NCBI GenBank assembly: GCA_022448085.1
Contig: JAKUTH010000004.1
Location: 14,883 to 78,882 of the forward strand
DNA length: 64,000 bases
Origin: Pseudomonadales bacterium
GTDB lineage: Bacteria > Pseudomonadota > Gammaproteobacteria > Pseudomonadales > Azotimanducaceae
Direction of reading: 5' to 3'
Part shown: positions 50,979 to 64,000 of the stretch, one piece after another
How the letters are laid out: every line of letters begins with the position of its first letter
Numbering within the stretch: the first letter of the stretch is position 1
The notes under the pieces: generated by a model
The model's database searches: none
Seen by the model: the letters and a program-made list of their open reading frames with translations, nothing else
What the model was told of the DNA's origin: nothing
Made by a program: the position numbers and the translations under genes

Positions 50979-53911
50979 GACGTCTCTCCCAACACGGCCA
51001 GATACCGATCACGCCTTTTTGCGCCGAGGTAACGATGTATTAGAAAAACGACGAAAACCATCAACAAGGCAAGCACATAATTGCCGTATTCGTATACTCG
51101 CTGACCTAGATCGCCGAGTGGCGGCAACGTGCTCGCGTACTGGTTTCTGCCTCGGATCGTTTGCAAGACCTCGTCTTCCACCGCCCAATCAACCACGTTT
51201 TGGATCAGATCAAGCGGTCTGGTGTACAGCTGCCCGTTCGCAACGCCGACCAATTGGATGATTTGATCCGAAACAAAGGAGTTCGAACCAAATACCAGCA
51301 ACCGAGCAGATTCAGGAGAACGTTTAATAACGCCCGAGACGGTTCCCGGTCCAGCGTCCTCGTCATTTTCATTTTCGCCATCGCCTATCCGCCCGTCTTC
51401 GGATTCTTCGCTTACTAGCGCGGCTTCCTCTTGCAACAGCGGCGACTCGTCGAAAAAGGATTCAAAGCGCCCCGAAACCAGGACCCCTAGCAGTTGGCGT
51501 CCTTCTTCGCCATCTGACTGATACGGTTCAACCACATCGCCGCTAAGTTTCGGCATGACATCGGGCGAGGAGTCACGCCAGCTTTGACTCGAACTCCAAA
51601 TCAAACGCTGAACGTCGCGCGCCTCTGATCCGGTTTCGTCCACGTCAATGGGCGATGCCCATGACATCGTCAATTGCGGGAGGCCGACCGTGATGGGGTG
51701 GTCCGCTAGCATCGCCTCGTCGCGAATGTCGATAAAGAACGGGTAGTCCAACATTCGGTAATCCTGAAAGCTGAACCCGCCCACTCTTCGGGTAACTGGT
51801 GCTGGGAATTGTGCGTTTTGTGGATCAAGCACCATGGATTTGTCGATTGAGATACCGTGGTGCTGTAGCCAAGCTTCAAGTCCAGTCGTTTGCGGCACGG
51901 CTGAAAGCATCGACTGGGTCAGGGTGCTACGGAAGGCCGAGGTTGCGACAACGACGGTACCGCCCCGCATTAAATATTGATCGATCGCAAACACCGCGCG
52001 GTCGTCTAGAACGGTCGGATCAACGATGAGCAAAACGTCCACGCTGGCAGGGATCACGTCGGTTAGATCCGCGGGCTGGAGTTCATGGCTGCTACCAAGT
52101 ACGTCGCGTAGGCCGGCAAATTGGTTTCCCGGCATCTGCTGTCCACCAGGATACTGGGGCGGCGTTGGGGGCGGCGTGTAAAGCGCCGCTGTCTTCATCA
52201 AACCCGACGCGAAACGCTTTAGCCCTTCTTCCAACCCTCGCTCCAGCCCGTCGCCGTCGAGCGATTCAGGGATGGGGATCTGAACGACTGTCGTGTCATC
52301 CGTTAGGGTCAGGTGAAAATAGAACGTATTGGCATCGAAGAGACTCGCTGCCATGGGGCCAAACCCGAATTTGTCGGCGATTTCCTCGGCAACCGCGCCG
52401 TCGTTCGCGTCCGGGTCAACAATTTCCCACGAAAACCCGTCCCCGGCCTCCAACGCGGTACGTTCGAGCAGTTCCGTTAGAGACCGTCCTAACAACGCAA
52501 GCTCCTGAGGCATGCGTTCGTCGGGCGAAATGTAACCCGTAAAACGGATCGGTTGGACGATGTTTGACCAAACGCTGTCGCCACCCTGAAAGTCGTATAA
52601 CACCTTTTTGATGCTTCGGGTGACTGCGTACTCTGGATTCGGGAGCCAGACATCGAGATCGGTCTCGCCACGCTGCTTAACATCGATCAATTCACGGAAA
52701 CTCAACACCTCGTATTCATCGCCGTATTGAACGAGAACATCGAAATACGAATTGACCAAACTCGCTTCGTGCCGGTCAGCCGTCTGAAAGGGTACCGGGC
52801 GAATGCCGTACTTGGTGTTCGCCTCGTCCTCCAATTCCGCATTATCCGCGGGATTGACGATCTCCACCCTTACTCGATCACCGCCGGCCACACCGTATTC
52901 GACCAACAGATCTTGCATTTGAGGCACCAGCGGTGCCAACAACGGATGCGTTTTTTTACTGAAATAGCCCCTGATTAGCAACGGTTCACGCAATCGTCTC
53001 AGGTATTGTAACGTCGCCTCTGACATCGAATACTGGTCGCCGCGGGTGACGTCCCAGCGCATGGAATTACCCACACCGTCTAACCAGACGTTGACCACAA
53101 GAACATTCGCCACAACTAGCCCTAACAGGATTTTCGATCGGCGATGACGGGCCGGCTGAGCATCTTCTGACCATCCCTGGCGATCCAACCCGTAGACATT
53201 TAATGCAAGAAACCCGACCGCGATCGACGCATAGAAATAGAGATCTCGAAAGTCGAGCATACCGCGCGTGATCGATTCGAAGCGCGAGCCCGAACCGAAC
53301 ATTCGCAAAATATTGGCACTGTTGTTATCAACTAGGTCAAGTAGGAAAGGGCTACCAATCAAATAGAAGGACCCACAAGCCAAAGACGCCAAAATCAGCG
53401 CGACGATTTGATTGTCGCTCCTGGCACTGACAAACAAACCAATGGCTATATAACTCGCTCCCAGGAGAATCGCGGCAACATAACCGGCAAGAACCGGTCC
53501 CCAGTCCAAACCCGCTAGGCTGTTGTCGGCAACCGCCAACGTGAGTGGGAGGGGTAATGTGAGCACCAAAGCAATACCGAGCAGCACCCAGCACGCAAGA
53601 AACTTTCCAATAACGAGCTCCAAGGTCGTCGCCGGAAGCGTGAGAAGAAATTCTAGCGTTCCACTGCGACGCTCCTCACTCCACATTCGCATCGTGAGCG
53701 CAGAAGACAAAAAAATCAGCAAGACAGGCATCCATTCGAACATCGGCCGAACGTCCAAGATATTCCGTGCAAAAAATGCCTCACCCCAAAAGAAAACAAA
53801 GAGCGTGGAACCGAGAAACGCGAGCAAAAATAAGTAACCTATCGGCGACCCGAAGAACTGGATAAGCTCTTTGGCAGCGACCTCCATACTCTTGCTCTTG
53901 CTAGCGAACAT
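50975..53911 (-). CDS. fused ABC-2 permease (GldF-like) / GldG-like auxiliary component
   Basis: 978 aa. The N-terminal roughly 250 aa form a polytopic ABC-2 permease (EERRSGTLEFLLTLP). A large periplasmic GldG-type region follows (DVTRGDQYSMSEATLQYLRRL..., LLIRGYFS), then a C-terminal TM anchor. Confidence 0.7.
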   Translation of the reverse strand: MFASKSKSMEVAAKELIQFFGSPIGYLFLLAFLGSTLFVFFWGEAFFARNILDVRPMFEWMPVLLIFLSSALTMRMWSEERRSGTLEFLLTLPATTLELVIGKFLACWVLLGIALVLTLPLPLTLAVADNSLAGLDWGPVLAGYVAAILLGASYIAIGLFVSARSDNQIVALILASLACGSFYLIGSPFLLDLVDNNSANILRMFGSGSRFESITRGMLDFRDLYFYASIAVGFLALNVYGLDRQGWSEDAQPARHRRSKILLGLVVANVLVVNVWLDGVGNSMRWDVTRGDQYSMSEATLQYLRRLREPLLIRGYFSKKTHPLLAPLVPQMQDLLVEYGVAGGDRVRVEIVNPADNAELEDEANTKYGIRPVPFQTADRHEASLVNSYFDVLVQYGDEYEVLSFRELIDVKQRGETDLDVWLPNPEYAVTRSIKKVLYDFQGGDSVWSNIVQPIRFTGYISPDERMPQELALLGRSLTELLERTALEAGDGFSWEIVDPDANDGAVAEEIADKFGFGPMAASLFDANTFYFHLTLTDDTTVVQIPIPESLDGDGLERGLEEGLKRFASGLMKTAALYTPPPTPPQYPGGQQMPGNQFAGLRDVLGSSHELQPADLTDVIPASVDVLLIVDPTVLDDRAVFAIDQYLMRGGTVVVATSAFRSTLTQSMLSAVPQTTGLEAWLQHHGISIDKSMVLDPQNAQFPAPVTRRVGGFSFQDYRMLDYPFFIDIRDEAMLADHPITVGLPQLTMSWASPIDVDETGSEARDVQRLIWSSSQSWRDSSPDVMPKLSGDVVEPYQSDGEEGRQLLGVLVSGRFESFFDESPLLQEEAALVSEESEDGRIGDGENENDEDAGPGTVSGVIKRSPESARLLVFGSNSFVSDQIIQLVGVANGQLYTRPLDLIQNVVDWAVEDEVLQTIRGRNQYASTLPPLGDLGQRVYEYGNYVLALLMVFVVFLIHRYLGAKRRDRYLAVLGETS

Positions 53912-54812
53912 CGTGGACCTCGCTTACTTCCCGGAAGAGCCTTTCCAAATCACGTTGAACTGGTGCCAAACTATGGATCGGAATTTCCTTAGCCACTAAG
54001 GCTCGAGCCACCTGAGCAGCGAGTTCCTCAGGTTCGACACCGGTTCGGGTGAGGAATATCCGGTCGTCTTCCAACACGACATTTGCCGTTGCATGGAGCG
54101 CGTTCTCGACGTCCGCGGGACGTGCCGAAGTCGTTAACTCGATCGTGTCAGCGCGTTTCAAATCTTCGAGCTTTTCATCGATCGCCAGTTCGCCATCGCG
54201 CATGATCAACACTCGATCACAAATTGCGTCTACTTCTTGCATGATGTGGGTCGAAAGGATCACCGTCGCGGTTTTGGCCAGATCCTTCAGAAGACGCCGC
54301 ATCTCTTCGGTCTGTCGAGGATCAAGTCCGTTAGTCGGTTCGTCGAGAATTAGCACGGGCGGCTTATGCAAAATTGCTTGCGCAACCCCAACACGCTGCT
54401 GAAACCCTCGCGATAGGGTACCTAGCTTATCAAGGGCTCGAGATCCGAGATCCATCGCCTCGATCACATCCCGTAGCCCGGATTCCGCTTCCTTCCCGGC
54501 CATACCACGCATGCTTGCGGCAAAGGTTAGGTAGTCGAAGACCGACATATCTGGGTAAAGCGGGCGATTTTCGGGTAGATAACCGACCTTACTCTGCACC
54601 GCTACGGGTTCGTCGCGAACGTCAATTCCATCGACCAGACCTCGCCCAGAAGTCGGTTCGAGGTATCCCGTAAGCATTTTCATGACGGTGGTTTTGCCGG
54701 CTCCGTTATGCCCAAGAAGGCCTACGATTTCAGCTGAGCCAACCTCGAAACTGACCTCAGAAACAGCCACTACGGCGCCGTAATGTCGCGTTAATCCATC
54801 GGCTTCAATCAC
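53901..54812 (-). CDS. ABC transporter ATP-binding protein (GldA/ABC-2 type)
   Basis: 303 aa with GHNGAGKTT, LSRGFQQRVGVAQA and LILDEPTNGLD. Confidence 0.9.
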   Translation of the reverse strand: MIEADGLTRHYGAVVAVSEVSFEVGSAEIVGLLGHNGAGKTTVMKMLTGYLEPTSGRGLVDGIDVRDEPVAVQSKVGYLPENRPLYPDMSVFDYLTFAASMRGMAGKEAESGLRDVIEAMDLGSRALDKLGTLSRGFQQRVGVAQAILHKPPVLILDEPTNGLDPRQTEEMRRLLKDLAKTATVILSTHIMQEVDAICDRVLIMRDGELAIDEKLEDLKRADTIELTTSARPADVENALHATANVVLEDDRIFLTRTGVEPEELAAQVARALVAKEIPIHSLAPVQRDLERLFREVSEVHDVR

Positions 54813-54933
54813 TATTATTCTTTCCCTAGTCGTACTTCAATACTCGCAGGCGGCATAGACTAATGTCCATGAAACACAAATTCCATCCCGGCAAGCCCTA
54901 GGCACTTAAGCAACGTTACCCCAGGCTGCCCGC

Positions 54934-55548
54934 ATGACTAGCCGTTACATAATCCCTGGCCCAGCCGGTAATTTGGAAGCCATGGTCAATGACTCGAACG
55001 GAGGTTCTTGGGTCATACTGTGTCACCCTCATCCTCTCTATGGCGGTTCGATGTTCGACGCGGTTCTCGACACTGTCGAACAAGCGTTGACGCCTATGAA
55101 CCTACGGACCCTACGATTCAATTTTCGCGGCGTCGGGTCTAGTGAAGGCGAACACGATAACGGGGAAGGCGAAGTGAACGATCTACTCTCGGTCGTGGAG
55201 TGGCTCTGCGAAGCGAAAAACCCGTCAACTCTCTCAGTCGCCGGTTACTCATTCGGTTCCGTGGTGGCGAGCCGAGGTGTTGCCAACAACAACACCGTGT
55301 CTCGTGTCATGTTAATTGCTCCGCCCACGTCTTCGATGGCATTAACAAACGACCTTACGTTGCCCATACGAATCATCGTCGGCGATGCCGACCCGTTCGT
55401 TGACCTTCCGCAGCTCCAACAATGGCAGCACGACCAACACGATGCCGAAATTACGACGATCCCTGGGGCCGATCACTTCTTCGGCGGCCAACACGAGGCA
55501 TTGCAATCGGCAACGTCGGCTATTTTCAGTGAAGCCCTGCCCCCGTGA
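54934..55548 (+). CDS. small alpha/beta hydrolase
   Basis: 204 aa with a GYSFGS nucleophile elbow and a late D...H (GDADPF, GADHFF). Confidence 0.75.
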   Translation: MTSRYIIPGPAGNLEAMVNDSNGGSWVILCHPHPLYGGSMFDAVLDTVEQALTPMNLRTLRFNFRGVGSSEGEHDNGEGEVNDLLSVVEWLCEAKNPSTLSVAGYSFGSVVASRGVANNNTVSRVMLIAPPTSSMALTNDLTLPIRIIVGDADPFVDLPQLQQWQHDQHDAEITTIPGADHFFGGQHEALQSATSAIFSEALPP

Positions 55549-56203
55549 TCCAACCATGACTAACGAATACAGCCGCATAAACGGCTAGCCCCAACACAAT
55601 CGGCAACCATAAGTCTTTCCAGTGGAGTGTGGCCCGACCCGCCGCAATAGCACCGAACGGGACGTTCGATGTGCGTGCAGTAAAAACACGCCATGCGTCC
55701 TCTTGCTCACGGGCCATTCGCGTATCGATCAAGTACGTGCCAAAGGCCGAGATAAGCCCGAACGTACCGAAGAAAATTAAGGAGGCGACGTCACCATTCG
55801 CTGTCATATGTCCCGCAACCCATAACACCACGGCCCACTGAAACGGATGGCGGGTAATGCATATGACGCCACGTGGTTCCGTTCCCAACTCGCCTTCTTT
55901 CCCAACACTCGTTGGGTTCTTGGTCGAAAACGCTCCGACGGCGAGTACGAAAGAAAACCCCACCAACACGTACGTTGACCACCAGTGGGCTTGGCTTGGC
56001 ACCCACAAATACGGACTCACCGGTCGGTCCGCGTAGCTCAAGATCATGAACCCAAGCGCGAACACCGCGACGATAGAGTACGCGGCGAGGTACCCGTTGC
56101 GACCGAACCGCTCGATTAGCACTGAGCGAAATGACGTGCTGCTAATTCCGAGGTGTGAAATCAGGAACAACGCGCTCGAGAAAACCAGCCTTGACAAAAC
56201 CAT
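55526..56203 (-). CDS. NnrU-family membrane protein
   Basis: 225 aa, polytopic, with HLGISS... and ITRHPFQWAVVLW, typical of NnrU. Confidence 0.75.
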   Translation of the reverse strand: MVLSRLVFSSALFLISHLGISSTSFRSVLIERFGRNGYLAAYSIVAVFALGFMILSYADRPVSPYLWVPSQAHWWSTYVLVGFSFVLAVGAFSTKNPTSVGKEGELGTEPRGVICITRHPFQWAVVLWVAGHMTANGDVASLIFFGTFGLISAFGTYLIDTRMAREQEDAWRVFTARTSNVPFGAIAAGRATLHWKDLWLPIVLGLAVYAAVFVSHGWITGAGLH

Positions 56204-56303
56204 GCCTCATCCATGGATAAGAATTTAATCCTGCATCCATGGAGCACAAAAGCCAACCTAGCGAGCTGTGCTACGCTCTTTGCCATCAGCTTGGGGGAAG
56301 GCG

Positions 56304-57173
56304 ATGCGCGACGTTACTGGAAAAGTTGCATTCATCACTGGCGGCGCGAGTGGCATGGGCTTAGCGATGGCCCGTTCGTTCGCAGCTGCCGGTATGAAAG
56401 TTGCGATCGCGGATATCGAACAAGATGCGCTCGATCGCGTCAAAGCGGAGTTCGACGCGAGCAACGCCGAAGTCATTACCCTTCAAGTCGACGTGACCGA
56501 TCGAGCCGCGATGGAAGCCGCCGCGGACGCTACCGAAGCGGCTTTCGATAAAGTTCACGTCCTCGTAAACAATGCTGGCGTCGCCGTCGGCGGATCGCTG
56601 GATCAGATGTCTTACGAGGATTGGGATTGGGTCATGGGCGTTAATCTCGACGGCGTGGTCAATGGCCTACAAGCGTTCGTGCAGCGAATTAAAGCTCACG
56701 GTGAGGGCGGCCATGTCGTCAATACCGCATCCCTCGCGGGCCACTTCGCGATTCCGGGACTAGGCGTTTATACCGCGACCAAATACGCGGTCGTTGGTAT
56801 ATCCGAAACGCTCCGCGCTGATCTCAAACAACACGATATTGGGGTTTCCGTGCTTTGTCCCGGGGTGGTCAACACCAATATTTTCGATTCAGGACGCAAT
56901 CGGCCCAGCCATCTTCAGGGTGAAACGGACACGGCGAAAATGGTCCTATCGGAGGACGTAGCGGGGCCGGAACAGGAGCAACGCATAGCAGAAATGATGA
57001 CCAAAGCGCTGGATCCGGCCGTGGTCGGCGATATGGTTTTGCATTCGATCCAAGAAGACGAGTTCTACATTTTCTCGCATCCGGAAGTCGAACCGATGGT
57101 GTCTGGAAGGGCGGCCGAAGTCACCGACGCGTTTGCGCGATGGCGCAAATACCGCGAGGACCACGGCGTCTGA
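56304..57173 (+). CDS. SDR-family oxidoreductase
   Basis: ATG at 56304 (MRDVTGKVAFITGGASGMG), with NNAG and YTATKYA. The track start at 56268 is probably an over-extension. Confidence 0.88.
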   Translation: MRDVTGKVAFITGGASGMGLAMARSFAAAGMKVAIADIEQDALDRVKAEFDASNAEVITLQVDVTDRAAMEAAADATEAAFDKVHVLVNNAGVAVGGSLDQMSYEDWDWVMGVNLDGVVNGLQAFVQRIKAHGEGGHVVNTASLAGHFAIPGLGVYTATKYAVVGISETLRADLKQHDIGVSVLCPGVVNTNIFDSGRNRPSHLQGETDTAKMVLSEDVAGPEQEQRIAEMMTKALDPAVVGDMVLHSIQEDEFYIFSHPEVEPMVSGRAAEVTDAFARWRKYREDHGV

Positions 57174-58306
57174 ACACGGAATTGAACCGAGCGTTGGTCG
57201 GCGTTACCGGAGGCGCTACAAGACTGCAGACACCTGCTCTGGTCATCGATTTGGTCCGCTTTAAAAACAACCTTGAGACCATGAGCACGCACTGCCAAAC
57301 GGTTGGTGTCGCCTTGCGCCCCCACACAAAAACCCACAAATGCGCTGCCATAGCAAAACTGCAAATTGAGGCCGGGGCCCGGGGTATCTGTTGTGCAAAA
57401 TTAGGGGAGGCCGAGGCTATGCAAACCGCTGGCATTCAAGACATTCTACTCACGTCCCCCGTCGTCACCCCGAGTGGCATCGACCGCCTCCTGAATTTGA
57501 ATGAGAGCGATACCGACATCTTTGCCGTCGTCGATAATCCGGTGAATGGCACGGCACTCAATGACGCCGCCCGAAAATTTAGTACCCCACTAAAGGTTCT
57601 ACTCGACCTCGATCCGGGTCTTCACCGAACAGGCATAGAACCTGGCCCAGGCGCTTTGGAATTGGCCCGGCAACTTTCGGAATCCGCTTACCTCGACTTT
57701 ACCGGACTCCAAATGTATGCCGGACACCTCATGCATATCACGCCGTACGACGAGCGCCACGACCAGTCAGTGGCTGTTATGGAAACGCTGGTTCATTTCC
57801 GAAACGAACTTCAACAAGTGGGTATCGCTTGCCCGGTCACCAGCGGCGGCGGAACGGGCACGTTCGATATCGACCCGGAAACGGGGGCACTCGATGAACT
57901 GCAAGCGGGGTCGTACCCATTCATGGATCGACAGTACAACGAAATTGAGGCTAGGCAGGGTGACCACCCTGCATTTTTTACCTCACTGTTCGTGCAGACG
58001 ACGGTCGTATCCGCGAATCACGACAATCTCATCACAACCGATGCCGGCCTTAAGGCCTTCGCAACCGACGATAAAAATCCCGAACTCCACGAAGGTGGAC
58101 CGCAAGACGGTCGTTACTTCTTTTTTGGTGACGAACATGGCGGTGTTCGGTGGCGTACAACTGAGGAATTTGCTGTTGGCGACTGGATGCGCGTCATCAC
58201 ACCGCACTGCGACCCAACGTTTAACCTATATGACGTCGTTCACGTCATCGAAGGAGACACACTCGTCGACATCTGGCCCATAGATGCCCGCGGACGTTCA
58301 GCGTAA
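57140..58306 (+). CDS. DSD1-family D-serine dehydratase / D-threonine aldolase-like PLP enzyme
   Basis: 388 aa with LQTPALVIDL and RPHTKTHKC (PLP Lys) in an alanine-racemase-like N-domain. The start is uncertain: ATG 57140 overlaps the SDR by 34 nt, and TTG 57182 is an alternative. Confidence 0.75.
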   Translation: MAQIPRGPRRLNTELNRALVGVTGGATRLQTPALVIDLVRFKNNLETMSTHCQTVGVALRPHTKTHKCAAIAKLQIEAGARGICCAKLGEAEAMQTAGIQDILLTSPVVTPSGIDRLLNLNESDTDIFAVVDNPVNGTALNDAARKFSTPLKVLLDLDPGLHRTGIEPGPGALELARQLSESAYLDFTGLQMYAGHLMHITPYDERHDQSVAVMETLVHFRNELQQVGIACPVTSGGGTGTFDIDPETGALDELQAGSYPFMDRQYNEIEARQGDHPAFFTSLFVQTTVVSANHDNLITTDAGLKAFATDDKNPELHEGGPQDGRYFFFGDEHGGVRWRTTEEFAVGDWMRVITPHCDPTFNLYDVVHVIEGDTLVDIWPIDARGRSA

Positions 58307-58316
58307 CAACGCCTTG

Positions 58317-59105
58317 TTAAAGTCCCCTTGCAAACACCGCAAGCGCGTCGAGCACGTCATTGGGTCGTTCGCTCAACATAAAGTGGCCGCAGCCGTCGAG
58401 CTTAACGATTTCGGCATTCGGTAACGCTTTCGCGACTTCGAGTCCCGCCCGAGCTGGTGTCATTAAATCCGCGCCGGCTGCGATTACGAGTGCAGGGCAT
58501 ATGACCTCATGGGAAACTTCAGCAAAACTATGGCAGGCTCCTAGATCAGCGTGAAGGACGCCCCGGGTCGCCCGTTCGAGGAGTCTTTCGCCCATGCCCA
58601 GCATCCAAACGCCTGGGTTGCTATTTGCACCCACCTTTCCCTGAAATGAATGACTCCATGTATTGATCATCTCAATCGCGGCATGATCGTTGTCGGCTGC
58701 CGCGTTCAACAACACGTCGGTAACGGGCATCGGGACCGATGTGCCCAAAAGAGCGATGGCGCGACAACGATCCGGGTGATCCACGGCAAATCGATAGGCG
58801 ACCAAAGAACCCATGCTATGACCCACGATAATCGACGGGGCGAAACCAAGGACATCGACGACGACGGACAACCAATCAGCCATCGCATCGATCGTATCCA
58901 GCGGAGCGCCTTGGCTCCGCCCATGCCCGGGGAGATCGACGGCGGCGCTATTGAATCCGTGGCGGGCAAAGTATCGAGCCGGCATTACCCAAATGCTGTG
59001 ATCCATACCCGCACCATGGATAAACACAATCCCCGGAGCATCGGGTTGGTGTCCAGAGGTGCCCGTCGACACAAATACACGTTCTGCGTTCACGTCAAGG
59101 TACAT
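58317..59105 (-). CDS. alpha/beta hydrolase
   Basis: 262 aa with IHGAGMDHSIW, GHSMGS and a C-terminal GCGHF. It lies 2 nt downstream of metY. Confidence 0.8.
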   Translation of the reverse strand: MYLDVNAERVFVSTGTSGHQPDAPGIVFIHGAGMDHSIWVMPARYFARHGFNSAAVDLPGHGRSQGAPLDTIDAMADWLSVVVDVLGFAPSIIVGHSMGSLVAYRFAVDHPDRCRAIALLGTSVPMPVTDVLLNAAADNDHAAIEMINTWSHSFQGKVGANSNPGVWMLGMGERLLERATRGVLHADLGACHSFAEVSHEVICPALVIAAGADLMTPARAGLEVAKALPNAEIVKLDGCGHFMLSERPNDVLDALAVFARGL

Positions 59106-59107
59106 CG

Positions 59108-60412
59108 TCAGCCTCTTTGCGAACGACGTAGTCCGCGTCCCAGATCCTCGATCAAGTCGTCCGGGTCCTCCAATCCGATAGAAAGTCGAACAAGACCTTC
59201 ACCAATACCCGCGCTCGCAAGCGCATCGGTACTCATGCGGTGATGGGTAGTACTCGCTGGATGAATCACCAGGGATTTCGCATCGCCAATATTGGCTAGG
59301 TGTGAAAAAAGTGAAAGCGCTTCGATAAACGCTCGCCCTGCGCCTCGGCCGCCTTTGATATTGAAACTGAATACTGCACCCGCGCCTTTTGGCAGCAATC
59401 GAGAAGCGAGTTCCCGATCCGGATGCGAATCGAGCTCCGGATAGAGCACGGACTCAACGGCTTCGTGTTCGTCCAAAAAGGCCACAACTCGGCGGGTATT
59501 CTCCACGTGACGCTGCATCCGTAACGGCAGTGTTTCTATACCTTGCAACACGTGAAATGCGGTCGTCGGTGCCATGCAAGCACCAAAATCCCGAATGCCC
59601 TCTTTCCGTGCTCGTGTAATGAAAGCCAGCGGTCCAAATTCTTCCGCAAAAACCAGATCGTGAAACCCCTCGTACGGTTGCGTCAACGTTGGAAATCGTT
59701 CCGATGTTTCCCAGTCGAACGTCCCACCATCGACCAGCAAGCCGCCGATAACAATGCCGTGCCCACTTAAGAATTTAGTCGCTGAATGCACGACGATATC
59801 GGCACCGTGCTCGATGGGCTTACACAAGTACGGTGTCGCAAAAGTCGAATCCACAACCAGTGGCATTCCAGCATCATGCGCGACCTCAGCAAGCGCTGAC
59901 AGATCGAGCACTTCGAGGCCCGGGTTACCCAAGATCTCTCCGAATAACAGTTTGGTTGATGGTGTAATTGCGCTTCTGAACGCTTCGACAGAACGGGGAT
60001 CCACGAACGTGGTCTCGATACCAAAACGGGGCAACGTGTACTCAAGCAAATTGTGGGTACCACCGTACAGCGATCTGGACGCGACGATATGATCCCCGGC
60101 CGAACAAAGTGTCGCGACCGCGAGGTGCATGGCCGCTTGGCCGCTGGCGGTTGCGATCGCCCCAACACCCCCTTCCAAGGCTGACAACCGTTCTTCCAAT
60201 ACCGCGTTAGTCGGATTGGAGAGCCTCGAATAGACGTGTCCCGCTCGCTCGATATTGAACAACCCGGCCGCGAAATCGGAGTCCGGAAATACGAACGAAG
60301 CCGACTGATATATCGGCGTTGCGCGGGCGCCTGTCACCGGGTCCGGCTGCTGTCCCGCGTGCAGCGTTAACGTATCAAATCCGGTCGACCGGGGCCCTTC
60401 ATGTTCAGACAT
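59108..60412 (-). CDS. metY: O-acetylhomoserine aminocarboxypropyltransferase (sulfhydrylase)
   Basis: ATG at 60412 (MSEHEGPRSTGFDTLTLHAGQ...), with YSRLSNPTN and SATKFLSGHG (PLP Lys). Confidence 0.88.
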   Translation of the reverse strand: MSEHEGPRSTGFDTLTLHAGQQPDPVTGARATPIYQSASFVFPDSDFAAGLFNIERAGHVYSRLSNPTNAVLEERLSALEGGVGAIATASGQAAMHLAVATLCSAGDHIVASRSLYGGTHNLLEYTLPRFGIETTFVDPRSVEAFRSAITPSTKLLFGEILGNPGLEVLDLSALAEVAHDAGMPLVVDSTFATPYLCKPIEHGADIVVHSATKFLSGHGIVIGGLLVDGGTFDWETSERFPTLTQPYEGFHDLVFAEEFGPLAFITRARKEGIRDFGACMAPTTAFHVLQGIETLPLRMQRHVENTRRVVAFLDEHEAVESVLYPELDSHPDRELASRLLPKGAGAVFSFNIKGGRGAGRAFIEALSLFSHLANIGDAKSLVIHPASTTHHRMSTDALASAGIGEGLVRLSIGLEDPDDLIEDLGRGLRRSQRG

Positions 60413-60598
60413 CGCAATCGAACTCCATCCCAGAAGGTCCGGGCACACCGAACGGAAACTTCATGATTACTGCTTGCACCGTCCCACCACAAGCCCGTTG
60501 TCAAAAAACATTGGCGCAAGAAACCCATCATCGAAGTTCTATGTCCGATCGGTTATCCGAACTAGACGCATTAACTTCAGCGCGGCAAGATAGACGCT

Positions 60599-61690
60599 AT
60601 GTACGCACATACCCACTATCCCCTTCGCGAGGGTCTTATCGAAGCCCACGAGAAGGTCTGGGAAAGCATCGCAGAACCGGGCCCGTTTTGGACCGGGACG
60701 GAACGAATCGCGATGGTGTTGGAATCGCGTGCCGCGACGAGTTGTCGTTTGTGTGCGAAACGCCGTCAAGCACTCTCGCCCTACGCCGTAGACGGGGTGC
60801 ACGATAACGAGACGGACTTAGACGCCGTGATCGTCGATATGATTCACCGGATTCGATCGGATCCTGGTCGTATCACGCGAACCATGTTCGATCAGGTCAT
60901 GACCGCTGGTTTCACACCCGAGCACTACATCGAAATCGTAGGTGTGGTGAACTCCTCGGTCATCATCGACACGTTACACGCTGCGTTGGGCCTCCCTCTG
61001 GCCGAGCTCCCCACACCGCAACCCGACGCACCCACGGGACAGCCCCCTGCCAATGTGACGGATGGAGGCGCTTGGGTTCCTATCGCGGTCGGTAACGAAC
61101 GACCCGGTATGATTAACGGACTCAGCGACAACCGCGAGCCCAACATTGCGCGTTCCATGGGACTCGTGCCGAGCGCCGTGCAACTCTTCTTCACGGCGTT
61201 TCGACCCCATTACGCATTGCAGAACATCCCCCTCGATCTGAAGCAATCTCAGGCAGAATTCATCGCGTCCCGCGTTTCCGCACTGAACCAGTGTTTTTAC
61301 TGAACCACCTCACATGCGATGCTGCTCCGGGCGAGCGGCCAGCCAGACCAAAAAGACTATGATTTGAATTCAGTCACCGACGACCATGTCGACTCGGGCG
61401 TTGATTTTGGTCATTGGCTCAGGTCCCTGACCGAAGCAGCCATTCAAAACCGATGGGATGACCTCGCAACCATTCGCGATCAAGCAGGCGCGGCTATGGG
61501 CACGCAATCCATGGTGGATGCACTTGTGGTTGCGTCGGGCTTCAACGGAATCACTCGGGTTGCAGACGCGACCGGCATTCCACTCGATGAGAACACCCAG
61601 CAAATGACCGTCGACATGCGTGAATCGACGGGGATCGAACGATTCAACTACACCGAAAAATCGGACCGGTACGACCTCGTCACGACTTGA
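60599..61690 (+). CDS. two-domain AhpD/carboxymuconolactone-decarboxylase (CMD) family protein, probable selenoprotein (TGA 61301-61303 read as Sec)
   Basis: Track ORFs 60599..61303 and 61319..61690 share one frame and are separated only by TGA plus 5 sense codons. The joined sequence ...SALNQCFY[TGA]TTSHAMLLR... reproduces the CxxCxxxH AhpD-core motif. The downstream part continues the CMD fold (FNGITRVADATGIPLDE). Confidence 0.65.
61321..61343 (+). promoter_or_regulatory. candidate bacterial SECIS hairpin
   Basis: The hairpin is GCUG-CU-CCG[GGCGAG]CGG-C-CAGC. It starts 20 nt after the U of the UGA, and the apical loop starts with GG about 29 nt downstream. Hand-folded only. Confidence 0.4.
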
Positions 61691-62450
61691 CCACGTATCG
61701 CCGTTGAAGCTCTTCGAGGTCTCGCGCATTGAGGCCTAGTCCACGTTCCAGATATCCATCGATCGAGCCGTGCAGTTTTTCCATCACACGAAAAGCAGCC
61801 CTCAAATACTCGATGCGAACGCCGGCGACGGATTTGATCGTCTCGATTTCAGGACTCAACGAGCCGTAGTATTGTCGAATGCGAGGAAGGATAAAACCCT
61901 CGAAATCTATAACGGTGTTGGTCAACAAGTAGTCTTCCTCAACGTTCTCGCGATTGACGCCAAGTGATGCAAGAATCATCGCAACTGCGAGACCCGTTCG
62001 ATCCTTCCCTGCTGTGCAGTGGACCAAAAATCCCCCGTCACGAGTGTCCAACAGTGTTGCAAATACCTTGTGATAGTTCTTGGTGTGGTCGCGGACAAGA
62101 TCCTCATTAATCGCCATCATAAAATTCATTCGCTGATCTTCAGTCGGCGGACGGCTCCGTAGCACCTGCCGCATCGATGGAGCGCTACCAGGGTCTATCG
62201 AAACGACTGTTCGTCTCGGATTTTCAGGCGGCAAGGGGGTCGGATCGTCCGCCCGCTCGTCAGCTCGGCGCAAGTCACATATGTGCCGAATATCCAATTC
62301 GTTAAACGTCGCAAGTCCGGTCGGCGTTACATTGGAAAGTGTTCCACATCGAAACAGTTTGCCCTCGACCACGCAGCCCCCCGCGACCGTCGGGTAGCCA
62401 CCGAAGTCCCGAAAATTCACGCCGCCTTCGATATCGATAATTTCTGGCAT
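61680..62450 (-). CDS. protein-tyrosine phosphatase-like protein (Y_phosphatase3 type)
   Basis: 256 aa with a CX5R P-loop (HCTAGKDRTG) and an NFRDFGG N-terminus. Confidence 0.85.
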   Translation of the reverse strand: MPEIIDIEGGVNFRDFGGYPTVAGGCVVEGKLFRCGTLSNVTPTGLATFNELDIRHICDLRRADERADDPTPLPPENPRRTVVSIDPGSAPSMRQVLRSRPPTEDQRMNFMMAINEDLVRDHTKNYHKVFATLLDTRDGGFLVHCTAGKDRTGLAVAMILASLGVNRENVEEDYLLTNTVIDFEGFILPRIRQYYGSLSPEIETIKSVAGVRIEYLRAAFRVMEKLHGSIDGYLERGLGLNARDLEELQRRYVVKS

Positions 62451-62544
62451 TCGTTAGGTCACTAGCAGGTCATTGAAGTTACTGGGAGAGGCGAGCTCCA
62501 CTTATCGTATACAAGGCCGCTGTCGATATTGGCAACCAGGTAAA

Positions 62545-63651
62545 CTACGGGCGAATTTCGTAGTAGCTATTGACCGACGTCCCAAATTCCAACCGTTCAA
62601 AGCCCGAGAACCCCGCGGTTTCGGTCATGTCTCTGGCTACCTGCTCATTAAATCCTAAAGTGCCCAACCCAGCCCCGTCAGGCGTGGACATACTCGAAGA
62701 CATGCAAATCATTAGTGAGAAACCATAGAACAGCCCCGCGCTGGGATTTTCCGTCAAATTCTCTGCGAACGTCGGAAGGCTTCGAATATCCGAACAAAGC
62801 CACGTTCCATCAGCTTTAAGACAACCGTAGACATCGGCGATAAGCCTTTCGGGATAAGGCGCGTCATGAACGACATCGAACGTAGTAACGAAGTCGATAC
62901 TACCGTCGCGAGGGAGAGGCTCCACCGTTGGGTTGACGAAGCGAACATTTTTCAGTTCGGTTTCCATCAGGTGGGCGTGTGCATTGGCTAACGCATGTTC
63001 GGACGTGTCATAGCCAACGAACTCAGATGCAGGGAATGCCTCCGCCATGACGAGAATCGCTTGGCCCGCTCCACAACCAACGTCCGCAACGCGTGCGCCC
63101 GACGTCAGCTTTTCAGTAACTCCGTCCAGGGAAGGCAGAATGTTTTGAACCAATTCGTTCCTCGGGACGTAGTTGTTGAGGCGCTCAATTCCGCACGCAC
63201 ATGCTTCGCCTTGGTCGTCATAACTCAGTCCTAAACCGGTGCGGAACGCATCGCCCAATTTCGGCACTGCATCGTGCGTCGCAACAACGGCTTCAAATCC
63301 GCCCGCGAAATAAAAGGGATTTTCGTCATCGCAAAGGACGATGGCAGCCTCAGGCGAAAGGCTGAAAGAATCATCGTCAGCGGAATATTCAATTTGTCCG
63401 ACGCATGCCTGATGCCGTAGCCATTCGCGCAACCAGCGTTCGTGAAGGCCGGTACACTCCGCAAATTCGGTGCTCGTCACCGGCCCTTCGTCTCTTAGTT
63501 GACGATATAGACCCATCTTGTCCCCAACGTACGACAAGCTGCAGTTAAAGCCAGCCATGACTTGCTGACTTACCTGCTTGACGTAGGTTTCTAGTTTTTC
63601 TCGATCTACCTGTGTCGCTTCCGCCATAAGAGTGTCTCCTGGTCGATACAC
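62545..63651 (-). CDS. class I SAM-dependent methyltransferase
   Basis: 368 aa with the motif I VADVGCGAGQ, preceded by an N-terminal helical (winged-helix-like) region. Confidence 0.8.
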   Translation of the reverse strand: MYRPGDTLMAEATQVDREKLETYVKQVSQQVMAGFNCSLSYVGDKMGLYRQLRDEGPVTSTEFAECTGLHERWLREWLRHQACVGQIEYSADDDSFSLSPEAAIVLCDDENPFYFAGGFEAVVATHDAVPKLGDAFRTGLGLSYDDQGEACACGIERLNNYVPRNELVQNILPSLDGVTEKLTSGARVADVGCGAGQAILVMAEAFPASEFVGYDTSEHALANAHAHLMETELKNVRFVNPTVEPLPRDGSIDFVTTFDVVHDAPYPERLIADVYGCLKADGTWLCSDIRSLPTFAENLTENPSAGLFYGFSLMICMSSSMSTPDGAGLGTLGFNEQVARDMTETAGFSGFERLEFGTSVNSYYEIRP

Positions 63652-63737
63652 AAAGATGCTAACCCATGGAACCGCTTCTCGACTCTATCTCTCAACGTAT
63701 TAGTTATCACGACGCCGGAGGGTCTCCCCTATAGAAG

Positions 63738-64000
63738 TCAACCGTCGAGCATATAACTGCCTGTCGCTTCAACGACGATGGTGTCGTTGTCTTGCCGGAA
63801 AACCTTGCCTTCAATCAGGACCACTCGGCCTTTACGTCGCAACAGTCGACCCTCGAGCCGCACCGGCGTGCCGACCGGAAGAGGTTGGCGATACCGGACT
63901 TCTGCTCGCGCGGTGAAACAACGCTCGCCCTGTAGATAGAGCCAGTTGGCCATGACGTCATCAAGCAGACAAAACAAAATGCCTCCGTGAACGACCCCGT
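63738..64000 (-). CDS. PaaI/hotdog-fold thioesterase (5' end beyond the right edge)
   Basis: The ORF stays open to the window end. It reads ...GVVHGGILFCLLDDVMA... plus a hotdog strand pattern. Confidence 0.7.
   Translation of the reverse strand, partial: GVVHGGILFCLLDDVMANWLYLQGERCFTARAEVRYRQPLPVGTPVRLEGRLLRRKGRVVLIEGKVFRQDNDTIVVEATGSYMLDG

What the first reader, a model, noticed from the sequence alone, without database searches (positions are those of the whole stretch)
60599..61690. In-frame TGA exactly at the second Cys of a CxxCxxxH AhpD/CMD active site: probable selenoprotein split into two ORFs
Seen in sequence:
- ORF 60599..61303 ends ...RVSALNQCFY-TGA.
- ORF 61319..61690 is in the same frame, only five sense codons later (ACC ACC TCA CAT GCG).
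- Reading TGA as Sec gives N-Q-C-F-Y-U-T-T-S-H.

Established knowledge: the AhpD-core/CMD family active site is C-x-x-C-x-x-x-H (Cys130/Cys133/His137 in M. tuberculosis AhpD). Peroxidase-related CMD proteins typically read ...saaNgChYCv.hH.... The stop therefore sits on a redox-active Cys column, the classic Cys/Sec exchange position.

The downstream ORF carries the rest of the CMD domain (ALVVASGFNGITRVADATGIPLDE) and would be meaningless alone. A hairpin at 61321..61343, with a GG-initiated apical loop about 29 nt after the UGA, fits bacterial SECIS geometry.

The N-terminal half (residues about 1-140) is a second, degenerate CMD-like domain with CRLC but no His. As far as I recall, AhpD-like Sec proteins were listed in computational selenoproteome surveys of marine metagenomes. 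The family-level idea is therefore probably not new, but this two-domain locus would be mis-annotated.
Basis: partly seen in the sequence, partly recalled or inferred. Interest (0 to 1): 0.7.

Follow-up and report, generated by a model that had tools for sequence, protein, structure and literature searches.

The report
Known AhpD-related selenoprotein gene (CFYUT)
The two adjacent reading frames are one gene for a selenocysteine-containing, AhpD-like redox protein whose in-frame TGA is read as selenocysteine.

Summary
ORF 60599..61303 ends NQCFY-TGA, and the same frame runs on (TTSHAM...) to 61690, giving a 363-residue protein.

Joined (U written as C), it matches NCBIfam NF041238 [quoted passage not shown] end to end. 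The E-value is 3.7e-125 and the score is 418 bits against a cut-off of 175.

- **TGA is conserved.** All 80 orthologous loci from species-representative genomes carry TGA at this column, never TAA, TAG, TGC or TGT.
- **The downstream part is translated.** It is as conserved as the upstream part.
- **Cys forms exist.** More distant full-length homologues (363-418 aa) have Cys there (CFYCxxxH).
- **A SECIS-like hairpin follows.** A 7-bp hairpin (61321..61339, loop CGGGC) sits 20 nt after the UGA. It is almost invariant, including at synonymous sites (0.29 bit against 1.71 elsewhere in the gene).
- **TGA is otherwise a normal stop.** It ends 18 of 36 long ORFs in the window.
- **The fold fits.** Models place both halves in the AhpD/CMD fold.

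A 2026 review equates NF041238 with "hypothetical protein 1" of the 2005 Sargasso Sea selenoproteome. The finding is correct but already known. No selA, selB, selD or tRNA-Sec lies in the window, so the decoding machinery could not be tested. The biochemical function is still unknown.

The parts
60599..61690 (+). Complete selenoprotein coding sequence (363 codons plus TGA stop at 61688-61690); AhpD-related CFYUT family
   Evidence: Searches give the reading frame. NF041238, E 3.7e-125, 417.9 bits (cut-off 175), protein residues 10-350 on profile positions 2-356 of 357; tblastn covers residues 1 to about 360 in one frame in 80 loci.
61301..61303 (+). In-frame UGA = selenocysteine codon (U235), at the second-Cys position of C232-F-Y-U235-T-T-S-H239
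   Evidence: TGA in 80/80 loci. Cys at this column in full-length homologues (for example P0135 NECFYCTNAH). TGA is the ordinary stop of 18 of 36 long ORFs in the window, so decoding here must be site-specific.
61321..61339 (+). Bacterial SECIS-like hairpin: helix 61321-61327 / 61333-61339 (GCUGCUC / GAGCGGC), apical loop 61328-61332 CGGGC. It encodes M-L-L-R-A-S-G
   Evidence: 98.3% of cells paired over 76 distinct sequences, against 29-65% when the partner is slid; third-position entropy 0.29 bit here against 1.71 elsewhere (minimum 1.13). CTC 80/80, GCG 61/61, Ser always AGY, Arg only CGG or CGT.
61298..61300 (+). Tyr codon immediately 5' of the UGA, invariantly TAC in Sec forms (possible context effect)
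   Evidence: TAC in 80/80. TAT occurs in one Cys-form gene (L089).
61256..61315 (+). Active-site segment E220 ... C232-x-x-U235-x-x-x-H239 (same spacing as E118/C130/C133/H137 of M. tuberculosis AhpD, recalled from the literature)
   Evidence: E220, C232, C/U235 and H239 conserved in at least 95% of 94 Sec and Cys forms; alignment to the CxYCxxSH motif of 6k40, 2oyo and 2pfx.
61124..61663 (+). C-terminal AhpD-core / 'peroxidase-related' domain (residues about 176-355), interrupted by the UGA
   Evidence: PDB 6k40, 2oyo and 2pfx align to residues 205-327; model of a Cys form (pLDDT 93) matches 2prr, 3c1l and 6k40 with TMt 0.72-0.74, probability 1.0. TIGR01926 and TIGR00778 hits below their cut-offs.
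60599..61018 (+). N-terminal all-helical domain (residues 1 to about 140), AhpD/CMD-like in fold, with invariant C49-x-x-C52, H68 and H83
   Evidence: model pLDDT 96; all credible PDB matches are AhpD/CMD-fold proteins (TMq 0.45-0.59). Searches give the invariant residues. No sequence-level match, and hhalign of N against C gives P 0.066.
60743..60754 (+). N-terminal C49-R-L-C52 motif (no His at +4; R55 invariant)
   Evidence: C49 and C52 are invariant in both Sec and Cys forms.

Best explanation
This is one intact gene for a 363-residue selenoprotein of the AhpD-related 'CFYUT' family (NCBIfam NF041238).

**Decoding.** During translation the UGA at 61301-61303 is not read as a stop. The hairpin 20 nt downstream (61321-61339) acts as a bacterial SECIS element. 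By analogy with other bacterial selenoprotein genes, it recruits SelB-GTP-Sec-tRNASec to the ribosome, which inserts selenocysteine at residue 235.

**Protein.** The product has two helical AhpD/CMD-fold domains. The C-terminal one carries an AhpD-type redox centre, E220 ... C232-F-Y-U235-T-T-S-H239. Sec sits where AhpD has its nucleophilic second cysteine. The protein therefore most likely works as a thiol/selenol oxidoreductase that cycles through a C232-U235 selenenylsulfide. The N-terminal domain keeps an invariant CxxC plus two His residues of unknown role.

**Shown here:** a single conserved reading frame, strict TGA conservation, a Sec/Cys pair, RNA-level selection on the hairpin, and family and fold assignment.

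**Inferred:** actual Sec insertion, the SelB mechanism, the redox chemistry and the substrate.
For: - **Family.** NF041238, E 3.7e-125, 417.9 bits against a cut-off of 175, full-length coverage.
- **TGA conservation.** TGA is present in 80/80 loci down to 46% protein identity, never another stop or a sense codon.
- **Downstream translation.** 79 of the 80 genes reconstructed from 79 loci and the window read through to 354-374 aa; one is cut by a contig end. Identity downstream of U (0.60) is at least that upstream (0.57).
- **Public proteins.** All top 120 end at C[FY]Y, which shows that gene callers truncate the whole family at this column.
- **Cys forms.** Full-length forms carry CFYCxxxH, encoded by TGC or TGT.
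- **Hairpin.** 98.3% of cells are paired. Synonymous-site entropy is 0.29 against 1.71 bit. In three Cys-form genes the same register pairs at only 5 of 7 positions and the sequence differs.
- **Genetic code.** TGA is the normal stop of 18 of 36 long ORFs in the window.
- **Reproducibility.** The same TGA occurs in independent assemblies.
- **Fold.** AhpD-core structures match at TMt 0.72-0.74, and PDB AhpD-like proteins align their CxxC..H motif on C232/U235/H239.
Against: - No tRNA-Sec, selA, selB or selD lies in the 64-kb window or in the 80 flanking loci. The genome's ability to decode Sec is therefore untested.
- The hairpin alone is not thermodynamically unusual (z-score about 0).
- The hairpin shows almost no compensatory change (2 cells), so its support is nucleotide invariance rather than covariation.
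- Rfam gave no match for this region.
- The Pfam CMD (20.1 against 23 bits) and TIGR00778 (26.9 against 27.8) scores fall just below their curated cut-offs.
- I found no report of biochemical work on any member in the papers I read.
Confidence: 0.92

Rival explanations
1. The TGA is a genuine stop. The locus encodes a 234-aa protein plus an independent 123-aa protein starting at ATG 61319, or it is a pseudogene.
For: This is how public gene callers annotate it: 234 aa plus 123 aa, and all top 120 database proteins end at this column. TGA is the commonest stop in the window.
Against: The stop is always TGA and never TAA or TAG in 80/80 loci. The five codons between the two 'ORFs' (TTSH[AT]) are conserved and include the catalytic His239. 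The frame is always preserved. A stop here would cut an AhpD domain in the middle of its CxxCxxxH motif. Full-length Cys forms exist. The curated NF041238 model spans both parts.
Confidence: 0.02
2. The TGA is a sequencing or assembly error for TGC or TGT (Cys).
For: A single-base difference from a Cys codon would restore an ordinary CxxC protein, and such Cys forms exist in more distant relatives.
Against: Identical TGA is found in 80 species-representative genomes assembled by different groups and technologies, including closed long-read chromosomes (titles). It is also present in independent metagenome samples that carry a near-identical gene.
Confidence: 0.01
3. The UGA is recoded, but not as selenocysteine. 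It could be stimulated read-through with Trp or Cys insertion by a near-cognate tRNA, with the hairpin acting as a read-through stimulator, in a genome that has no Sec machinery.
For: The Sec machinery was not found in the sequence available. The hairpin has no significant covariation and no Rfam match.
Against: The UGA sits exactly on a redox-active Cys column with Cys-form homologues, which is the classical signature of Sec. The hairpin has the distance (24 nt from the UGA to the loop), loop size and loop G residues of the bacterial SECIS model (criteria recalled from Zhang and Gladyshev 2005). The family is listed as a selenoprotein in the literature, and SelD is abundant in marine metagenomes (PMC1088965, PMC2398784, PMC13188914).
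Confidence: 0.04

Closest known systems
NCBIfam NF041238 'AhpD_rel_CFYUT', alkylhydroperoxidase-related (seleno)protein; equated in the 2026 review with 'hypothetical protein 1' of the Sargasso Sea selenoproteome (Zhang, Fomenko and Gladyshev 2005; PMC1088965; PMC13188914)
   Same: Full-length match far above the curated cut-off. It has the C-F-Y-U-T motif, a CxxU redox motif, a marine uncultured source and a SECIS hairpin after the UGA.
   Different: Nothing of substance; this is simply a member. This analysis adds 80 genomic loci, nearly all labelled Pseudomonadales, Ca. Azotimanducaceae, Halieaceae, unclassified Gammaproteobacteria or Pseudomonadota. It also adds quantification of the synonymous-site constraint and fold models showing that both halves are AhpD-like.
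AhpD-like selenoproteins of marine metagenomes ('AhpD-like 1', COG2128, and 'AhpD-like 2', pfam02627; CxxU; PMC2398784)
   Same: Same superfamily, same CxxU motif with Sec at the second-Cys position, same habitat.
   Different: Those families were assigned to single-domain models (COG2128, pfam02627). This protein has about 360 aa with an extra N-terminal AhpD-fold domain bearing CxxC + 2 His. It scores below the cut-offs of the TIGR01926, TIGR00778 and PF02627 models.
M. tuberculosis AhpD (Cys130/Cys133/His137/Glu118) and the structurally solved 'peroxidase-related' AhpD-core proteins 2prr, 3c1l, 6k40, 2oyo, 2pfx
   Same: Helical AhpD fold (TMt 0.66-0.74). The E-x11-C-x-x-C/U-x-x-x-H motif aligns.
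   Different: Sec replaces the second Cys. Sequence identity is only about 20%. The protein has two domains in one chain. No ahpC, lpd or dlaT was identified among the ten flanking ORFs annotated. The substrate is unknown.
Sestrin-2 (eukaryotic protein with two AhpD-like halves)
   Same: Two AhpD-like helical halves in one chain, with weak sequence and fold matches (E 0.007; TM about 0.45).
   Different: The matches are weak (rmsd 12-16 Å). Sestrin has no Sec and there is no evidence of orthology.

Membership tests
NCBIfam NF041238 AhpD_rel_CFYUT (seleno)protein | Whole-protein HMM score above the curated cut-off (175 bits) with end-to-end coverage | tested here: met
   417.9 bits, E 3.7e-125, protein residues 10-350 on profile positions 2-356 of 357.
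NCBIfam NF041238 AhpD_rel_CFYUT (seleno)protein | C-F-Y-U-T motif with U encoded by TGA (or Cys in non-Sec members) | tested here: met
   Q-C-F-Y-TGA-T-T; the same motif in 80/80 loci; the CFYC motif in full-length Cys forms.
Bacterial selenoprotein gene (general criteria) | In-frame UGA conserved among orthologues, with conserved coding sequence on both sides | tested here: met
Bacterial selenoprotein gene (general criteria) | Homologues with Cys aligned to the UGA position | tested here: met
   (about 15 full-length Cys forms). TGC or TGT codons.
Bacterial selenoprotein gene (general criteria) | SECIS stem-loop just downstream of the UGA (UGA-to-loop distance about 16-37 nt, small apical loop with G; criteria recalled from Zhang and Gladyshev 2005) | tested here: met
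   a 7-bp helix starting 20 nt after the U of UGA, with 24 nt from the UGA to the loop and loop CG[G/U]GC. It is conserved at synonymous sites. There is little covariation and the fold energy is not significant.
Bacterial selenoprotein gene (general criteria) | selA, selB, selD and tRNA-Sec present in the same genome | not testable with these tools
   None is in the window or in the 80 loci.
Bacterial selenoprotein gene (general criteria) | Selenium actually incorporated (75Se labelling or mass spectrometry) | not testable with these tools
   This needs an experiment.
AhpD / carboxymuconolactone decarboxylase (CMD) superfamily (PF02627, TIGR00778) | Sequence-model score at or above the curated threshold | tested here: not met
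   PF02627 20.1 bits against 23. TIGR00778 26.9 against 27.8, and TIGR01926 37 against 81.8. All match the right region (residues 213-263) but fall below their cut-offs.
AhpD / carboxymuconolactone decarboxylase (CMD) superfamily (PF02627, TIGR00778) | AhpD-core all-helical fold | tested here: met
   model of a Cys form (pLDDT 93.3) matches 2prr, 3c1l and 6k40 with TMt 0.72-0.74, probability 1.0. The N-terminal domain gives weaker matches (TMq up to 0.59, E 0.05 or higher).
AhpD / carboxymuconolactone decarboxylase (CMD) superfamily (PF02627, TIGR00778) | Catalytic Glu ... C-x-x-C-x-x-x-H motif | tested here: met
   E220, C232, U235 and H239 are conserved in at least 95% of sequences and aligned to the motif of solved AhpD-like proteins.
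AhpD proper (AhpC-reducing alkylhydroperoxidase D) | Functional or genomic partnership with AhpC (and Lpd/DlaT), and peroxidase or AhpC-reductase activity | tested here: inconclusive
   No ahpC-like gene was identified among the ten flanking ORFs annotated here (53901-63977); several of them had no family match. Activity cannot be tested. I do not file this protein as AhpD proper.

The most novel reading that the evidence does not exclude
The family might be more than a generic antioxidant protein. It could be a two-centre enzyme in which the invariant N-terminal C49-x-x-C52 / H68 / H83 cluster (a possible Zn or second redox site) cooperates with the C-terminal C-x-x-U centre. It could also be functionally tied to the divergently transcribed metY (O-acetylhomoserine sulfhydrylase) found next to it in about half of the loci. 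One such role would be handling sulfide/selenide or persulfide species for homocysteine or selenohomocysteine synthesis. This would give 'hypothetical protein 1' a first specific function.
Probability: 0.08. Interest if true: 0.5.

Novelty: already known. Interest (0 to 1): 0.15.

Why it matters
The practical value is in annotation. Generic gene callers split or truncate this gene: all of the 120 closest database proteins stop at the UGA. Pipelines without the NF041238 model will therefore report two hypothetical proteins and miss a selenoprotein.

Biologically, the data show that this family is almost exclusively in the Sec form across a broad set of uncultured Pseudomonadales-type Gammaproteobacteria. 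They also give a clean example of a SECIS element that constrains both codon choice and the peptide (MLLRASG) it encodes.

The function of the family is still unknown, so the conserved N-terminal Cys2His2 residues and the metY neighbourhood are usable leads. None of this changes current understanding of selenoproteins.

Tried and rejected
- **Fold energy.** The thermodynamic significance of the hairpin in the single sequence is nil (z-score 0.05 and 0.27). Energy alone is therefore no evidence, and I relied on comparative data instead.
- **Covariation.** Only 2 compensatory cells were found. RNAalifold predicts just the inner 5 bp. The helix is too invariant for a covariation test.
- **Rfam.** Scans at gathering and at permissive thresholds gave nothing relevant.
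- **Sec machinery.** A tRNA-Sec search in the window and 60 loci found none. A tblastn search with E. coli SelA, SelB and SelD against the window and 80 loci gave no hits. This is uninformative about the whole genome.
- The N-terminal 234 aa were used instead.
- **Internal duplication.** hhalign of the N-terminal profile against the C-terminal profile gave P 0.066. This is suggestive, since CxxC aligns on CxxU, but not significant. The duplication claim therefore rests on the fold match only.
- **Other selenoprotein genes.** A window-wide scan for other in-frame TGA codons with CxxU or UxxC motifs and long flanks found no other credible candidate.
- **Cys-form controls.** Only three Cys-form genes were recovered as DNA, so that control is small.
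- **Odd homologue.** P0131 (397 aa, 'NESYYLTTSH', with Leu at the U column and a large insertion) looked odd and was left out of the later alignments. It was not explained.

Full report
**1. The observation**

- An ORF starts at ATG 60599 and ends ...RVSALNQCFY followed by TGA at 61301-61303.
- The frame continues through ACC ACC TCA CAT GCG to the ATG at 61319.
- It then runs on to a TGA at 61688-61690.
- Read through, the product has 363 residues and contains N-Q-C-F-Y-U-T-T-S-H.

**2. What it is**

*Family assignment.* With U written as C, the joined protein matches one NCBIfam equivalog model end to end. This is NF041238 'AhpD_rel_CFYUT, alkylhydroperoxidase-related (seleno)protein'. The E-value is 3.7e-125 and the score is 417.9 bits against a curated cut-off of 175. 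Residues 10-350 lie on profile positions 2-356 of 357.

Generic AhpD/CMD models hit the right place, residues 213-263 around the motif, but fall just below their cut-offs:
- PF02627: 20.1 against 23 bits.
- TIGR00778: 26.9 against 27.8 bits.
- TIGR01926: 37 against 81.8 bits.

*Public proteins are truncated.* A search of 5.8 billion public proteins returned 238 hits. The best 120 are all 210-274 aa long, and every one ends ...N[EQ]C[FY]Y. Gene callers therefore truncate the whole family at this column.

*Related loci.* A scan of one genome per species (GTDB representatives) gave 80 loci. Nearly all are MAGs labelled Pseudomonadales, Candidatus Azotimanducaceae, Halieaceae, unclassified Gammaproteobacteria or Pseudomonadota, and one is labelled Limisphaerales. 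In them, tblastn aligns query residues 1 to about 360 in a single frame.
- In all 80 loci the codon at the U column is TGA, never TAA, TAG, TGC or TGT. The downstream peptide TTSHTMLLRASG... is conserved.
- Of the 80 genes reconstructed from 79 loci and the window, 79 read through to 354-374 aa; one is cut by a contig end.
- Amino-acid identity to the window protein is 0.57 upstream and 0.60 downstream of U. The downstream part is therefore under the same purifying selection as the upstream part.

*Cys forms.* An exhaustive HMMER search of 1.84 billion cluster representatives with the N-terminal 234 aa found 843 relatives. Most again end at C[FY]Y.
- About 15 are full length (363-418 aa) and have Cys at the U column. 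Examples are P0135 ...NECFYCTNAHAMML and P0231 ...NQCFYCSSVH.
- Three of these genes were recovered as DNA and use TGC or TGT.

This is the classical Sec/Cys pair.

*TGA elsewhere in the window.* TGA is the ordinary terminator of 18 of 36 long ORFs in the window. There is no code reassignment, so decoding at 61301 must be site-specific.

*Independent assemblies.* The same TGA and hairpin occur in near-identical genes from independent metagenome assemblies. There the locus is called as a 234-aa gene plus a 123-aa gene.

**3. The recoding signal**

The hairpin lies in 61321-61339: helix GCUGCUC / GAGCGGC with loop CGGGC. It starts 20 nt after the U of UGA, and 24 nt separate the UGA from the loop.

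In the single sequence the hairpin is not energetically special (z-score about 0).

Across 81 sequences (76 distinct), 98.3% of helix cells are paired, against 29-65% when the 3' partner is slid by 1-3 columns. Only two cells are compensatory.

The decisive evidence is at synonymous sites:
- The six 4- or 6-fold degenerate codons that encode the hairpin (L242, L243, R244, A245, S246, G247) have a mean third-position entropy of 0.29 bit.
- The 96 comparable conserved columns elsewhere in the gene average 1.71 bit, with a minimum of 1.13.
- Leu243 is CTC in 80/80 and Ala245 is GCG in 61/61.
- Ser246 is always AGY and never TCN, whereas the Ser two codons before His239 uses TCN.
- Arg244 is only CGG or CGT, which puts G or U at the centre of the loop.
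- The Tyr codon before the UGA is TAC in 80/80.

In the three Cys-form genes the same register pairs at only 5 of 7 positions and the sequence is different. This is a small control.

Distance, loop size and loop G residues fit the bacterial SECIS model as I recall it from Zhang and Gladyshev (2005). Rfam gave no match for this region.

**4. The protein**

*C-terminal domain.* PDB sequence search aligns residues 205-327 with the AhpD-like 'peroxidase-related' proteins 6k40, 2oyo and 2pfx. U235 falls on the second Cys of their C-x-Y-C-x-x-S-H motif. E220, C232, C/U235 and H239 are conserved in at least 95% of 94 Sec and Cys forms. Their spacing equals that of Glu118/Cys130/Cys133/His137 of M. 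tuberculosis AhpD, a figure I take from established knowledge and did not test here.

*Whole-protein model.* An AlphaFold2 model of a Cys form (P0135; pLDDT 93.3, pTM 0.93) matches the AhpD-core structures 2prr, 3c1l and 6k40 at TMt 0.72-0.74. It weakly resembles the two-lobed Sestrin-2.

*N-terminal domain.* The window's own N-terminal 150 residues model at pLDDT 96. All their credible PDB matches are AhpD/CMD-fold proteins (6e8l, 2prr, 3c1l, 2pfx, Bmp8), with TMq 0.45-0.59, probability up to 0.99 and E 0.05-0.4. Profile-profile comparison of the two halves is only suggestive (P 0.066).

That domain has invariant C49-x-x-C52, H68 and H83 in both Sec and Cys forms.

**5. Mechanism**

*Shown:* one gene, a conserved UGA on a redox Cys column, and an RNA element under selection just downstream.

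*Inferred:*
- SelB-dependent insertion of Sec.
- A catalytic cycle in which the selenolate of U235 attacks an oxidised substrate and C232 resolves it to a selenenylsulfide. U235 occupies the position of the nucleophilic Cys of AhpD.
- Re-reduction by a cellular thiol system.

The substrate is unknown. No ahpC-like gene was identified among the ten flanking ORFs annotated here.

**6. What could not be tested**

No tRNA-Sec, selA, selB or selD is present in the window or in the 80 loci. This is the main residual uncertainty.

**7. Comparison with what is known, and novelty**

The 2005 Sargasso Sea selenoproteome paper described AhpD-like (CxxU) selenoproteins. It also described a family called 'hypothetical protein 1' (four sequences, CxxU, SECIS shown, no function) (PMC1088965).

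The 2008 GOS analysis lists AhpD-like 1 and AhpD-like 2 among the most abundant marine selenoprotein families (PMC2398784).

The locus is therefore an ordinary member of an already described and curated selenoprotein family.

**8. Verdict**

The novelty is nil beyond annotation hygiene, and interest is low (0.15).

Noticed in passing
window 59108..60448 (-) and 58317..59105 (-); loci L001-L080: A metY-type O-acetylhomoserine aminocarboxypropyltransferase gene (NF006004, 780 bits) followed by an alpha/beta-hydrolase gene lies divergently just upstream of the selenoprotein gene. The same divergent arrangement, within 500 nt, occurs in 38 of 72 loci with enough upstream DNA. These include members only about 47-57% identical. 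This could be mere synteny or a link to sulfur/selenium metabolism.
   Followed up: partly
window 60743..60754 (C49, C52), 60800..60802 (H68), 60845..60847 (H83): Four residues of the N-terminal domain (C49, C52, H68, H83) are invariant in both Sec and Cys forms of the family. A Cys2His2 set suggests a metal site or a second redox centre.
   Followed up: no
window 61298..61300: The Tyr codon immediately before the UGA is TAC in 80 of 80 Sec-form genes, whereas TAT occurs in a Cys-form gene (L089). This may be a codon-context requirement for Sec insertion.
   Followed up: no
window 62545..63651 (-): The nearby 368-aa SAM-dependent methyltransferase (with a winged-helix Rv2258c-like N-terminus in public calls) has as its best, far sub-threshold, NCBIfam hit the methyltransferase part of 'ArsM/AhpD domain selenoprotein' NF041537 (48.6 bits against a cut-off of 510). 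It co-occurs downstream in 27 of 80 loci. This is probably just generic methyltransferase similarity.
   Followed up: no
L068 (JBNMMV010000002.1, labelled Limisphaerales): One of the 80 TGA-form loci comes from a MAG labelled Verrucomicrobiota (Limisphaerales), while the other records are labelled as Gammaproteobacteria-type lineages or only as Proteobacteria/Pseudomonadota. It also carries the metY, hydrolase and methyltransferase neighbours. That points to a binning error or a recent transfer.
   Followed up: no
protein P0131 (397 aa; alignment): A full-length homologue reads ...NESYYLTTSH, with Ser for the first Cys and Leu at the Sec column, and has a 40-residue low-complexity insertion. 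It may be a degenerate paralogue, or a mis-translated or mis-assembled sequence.
   Followed up: no
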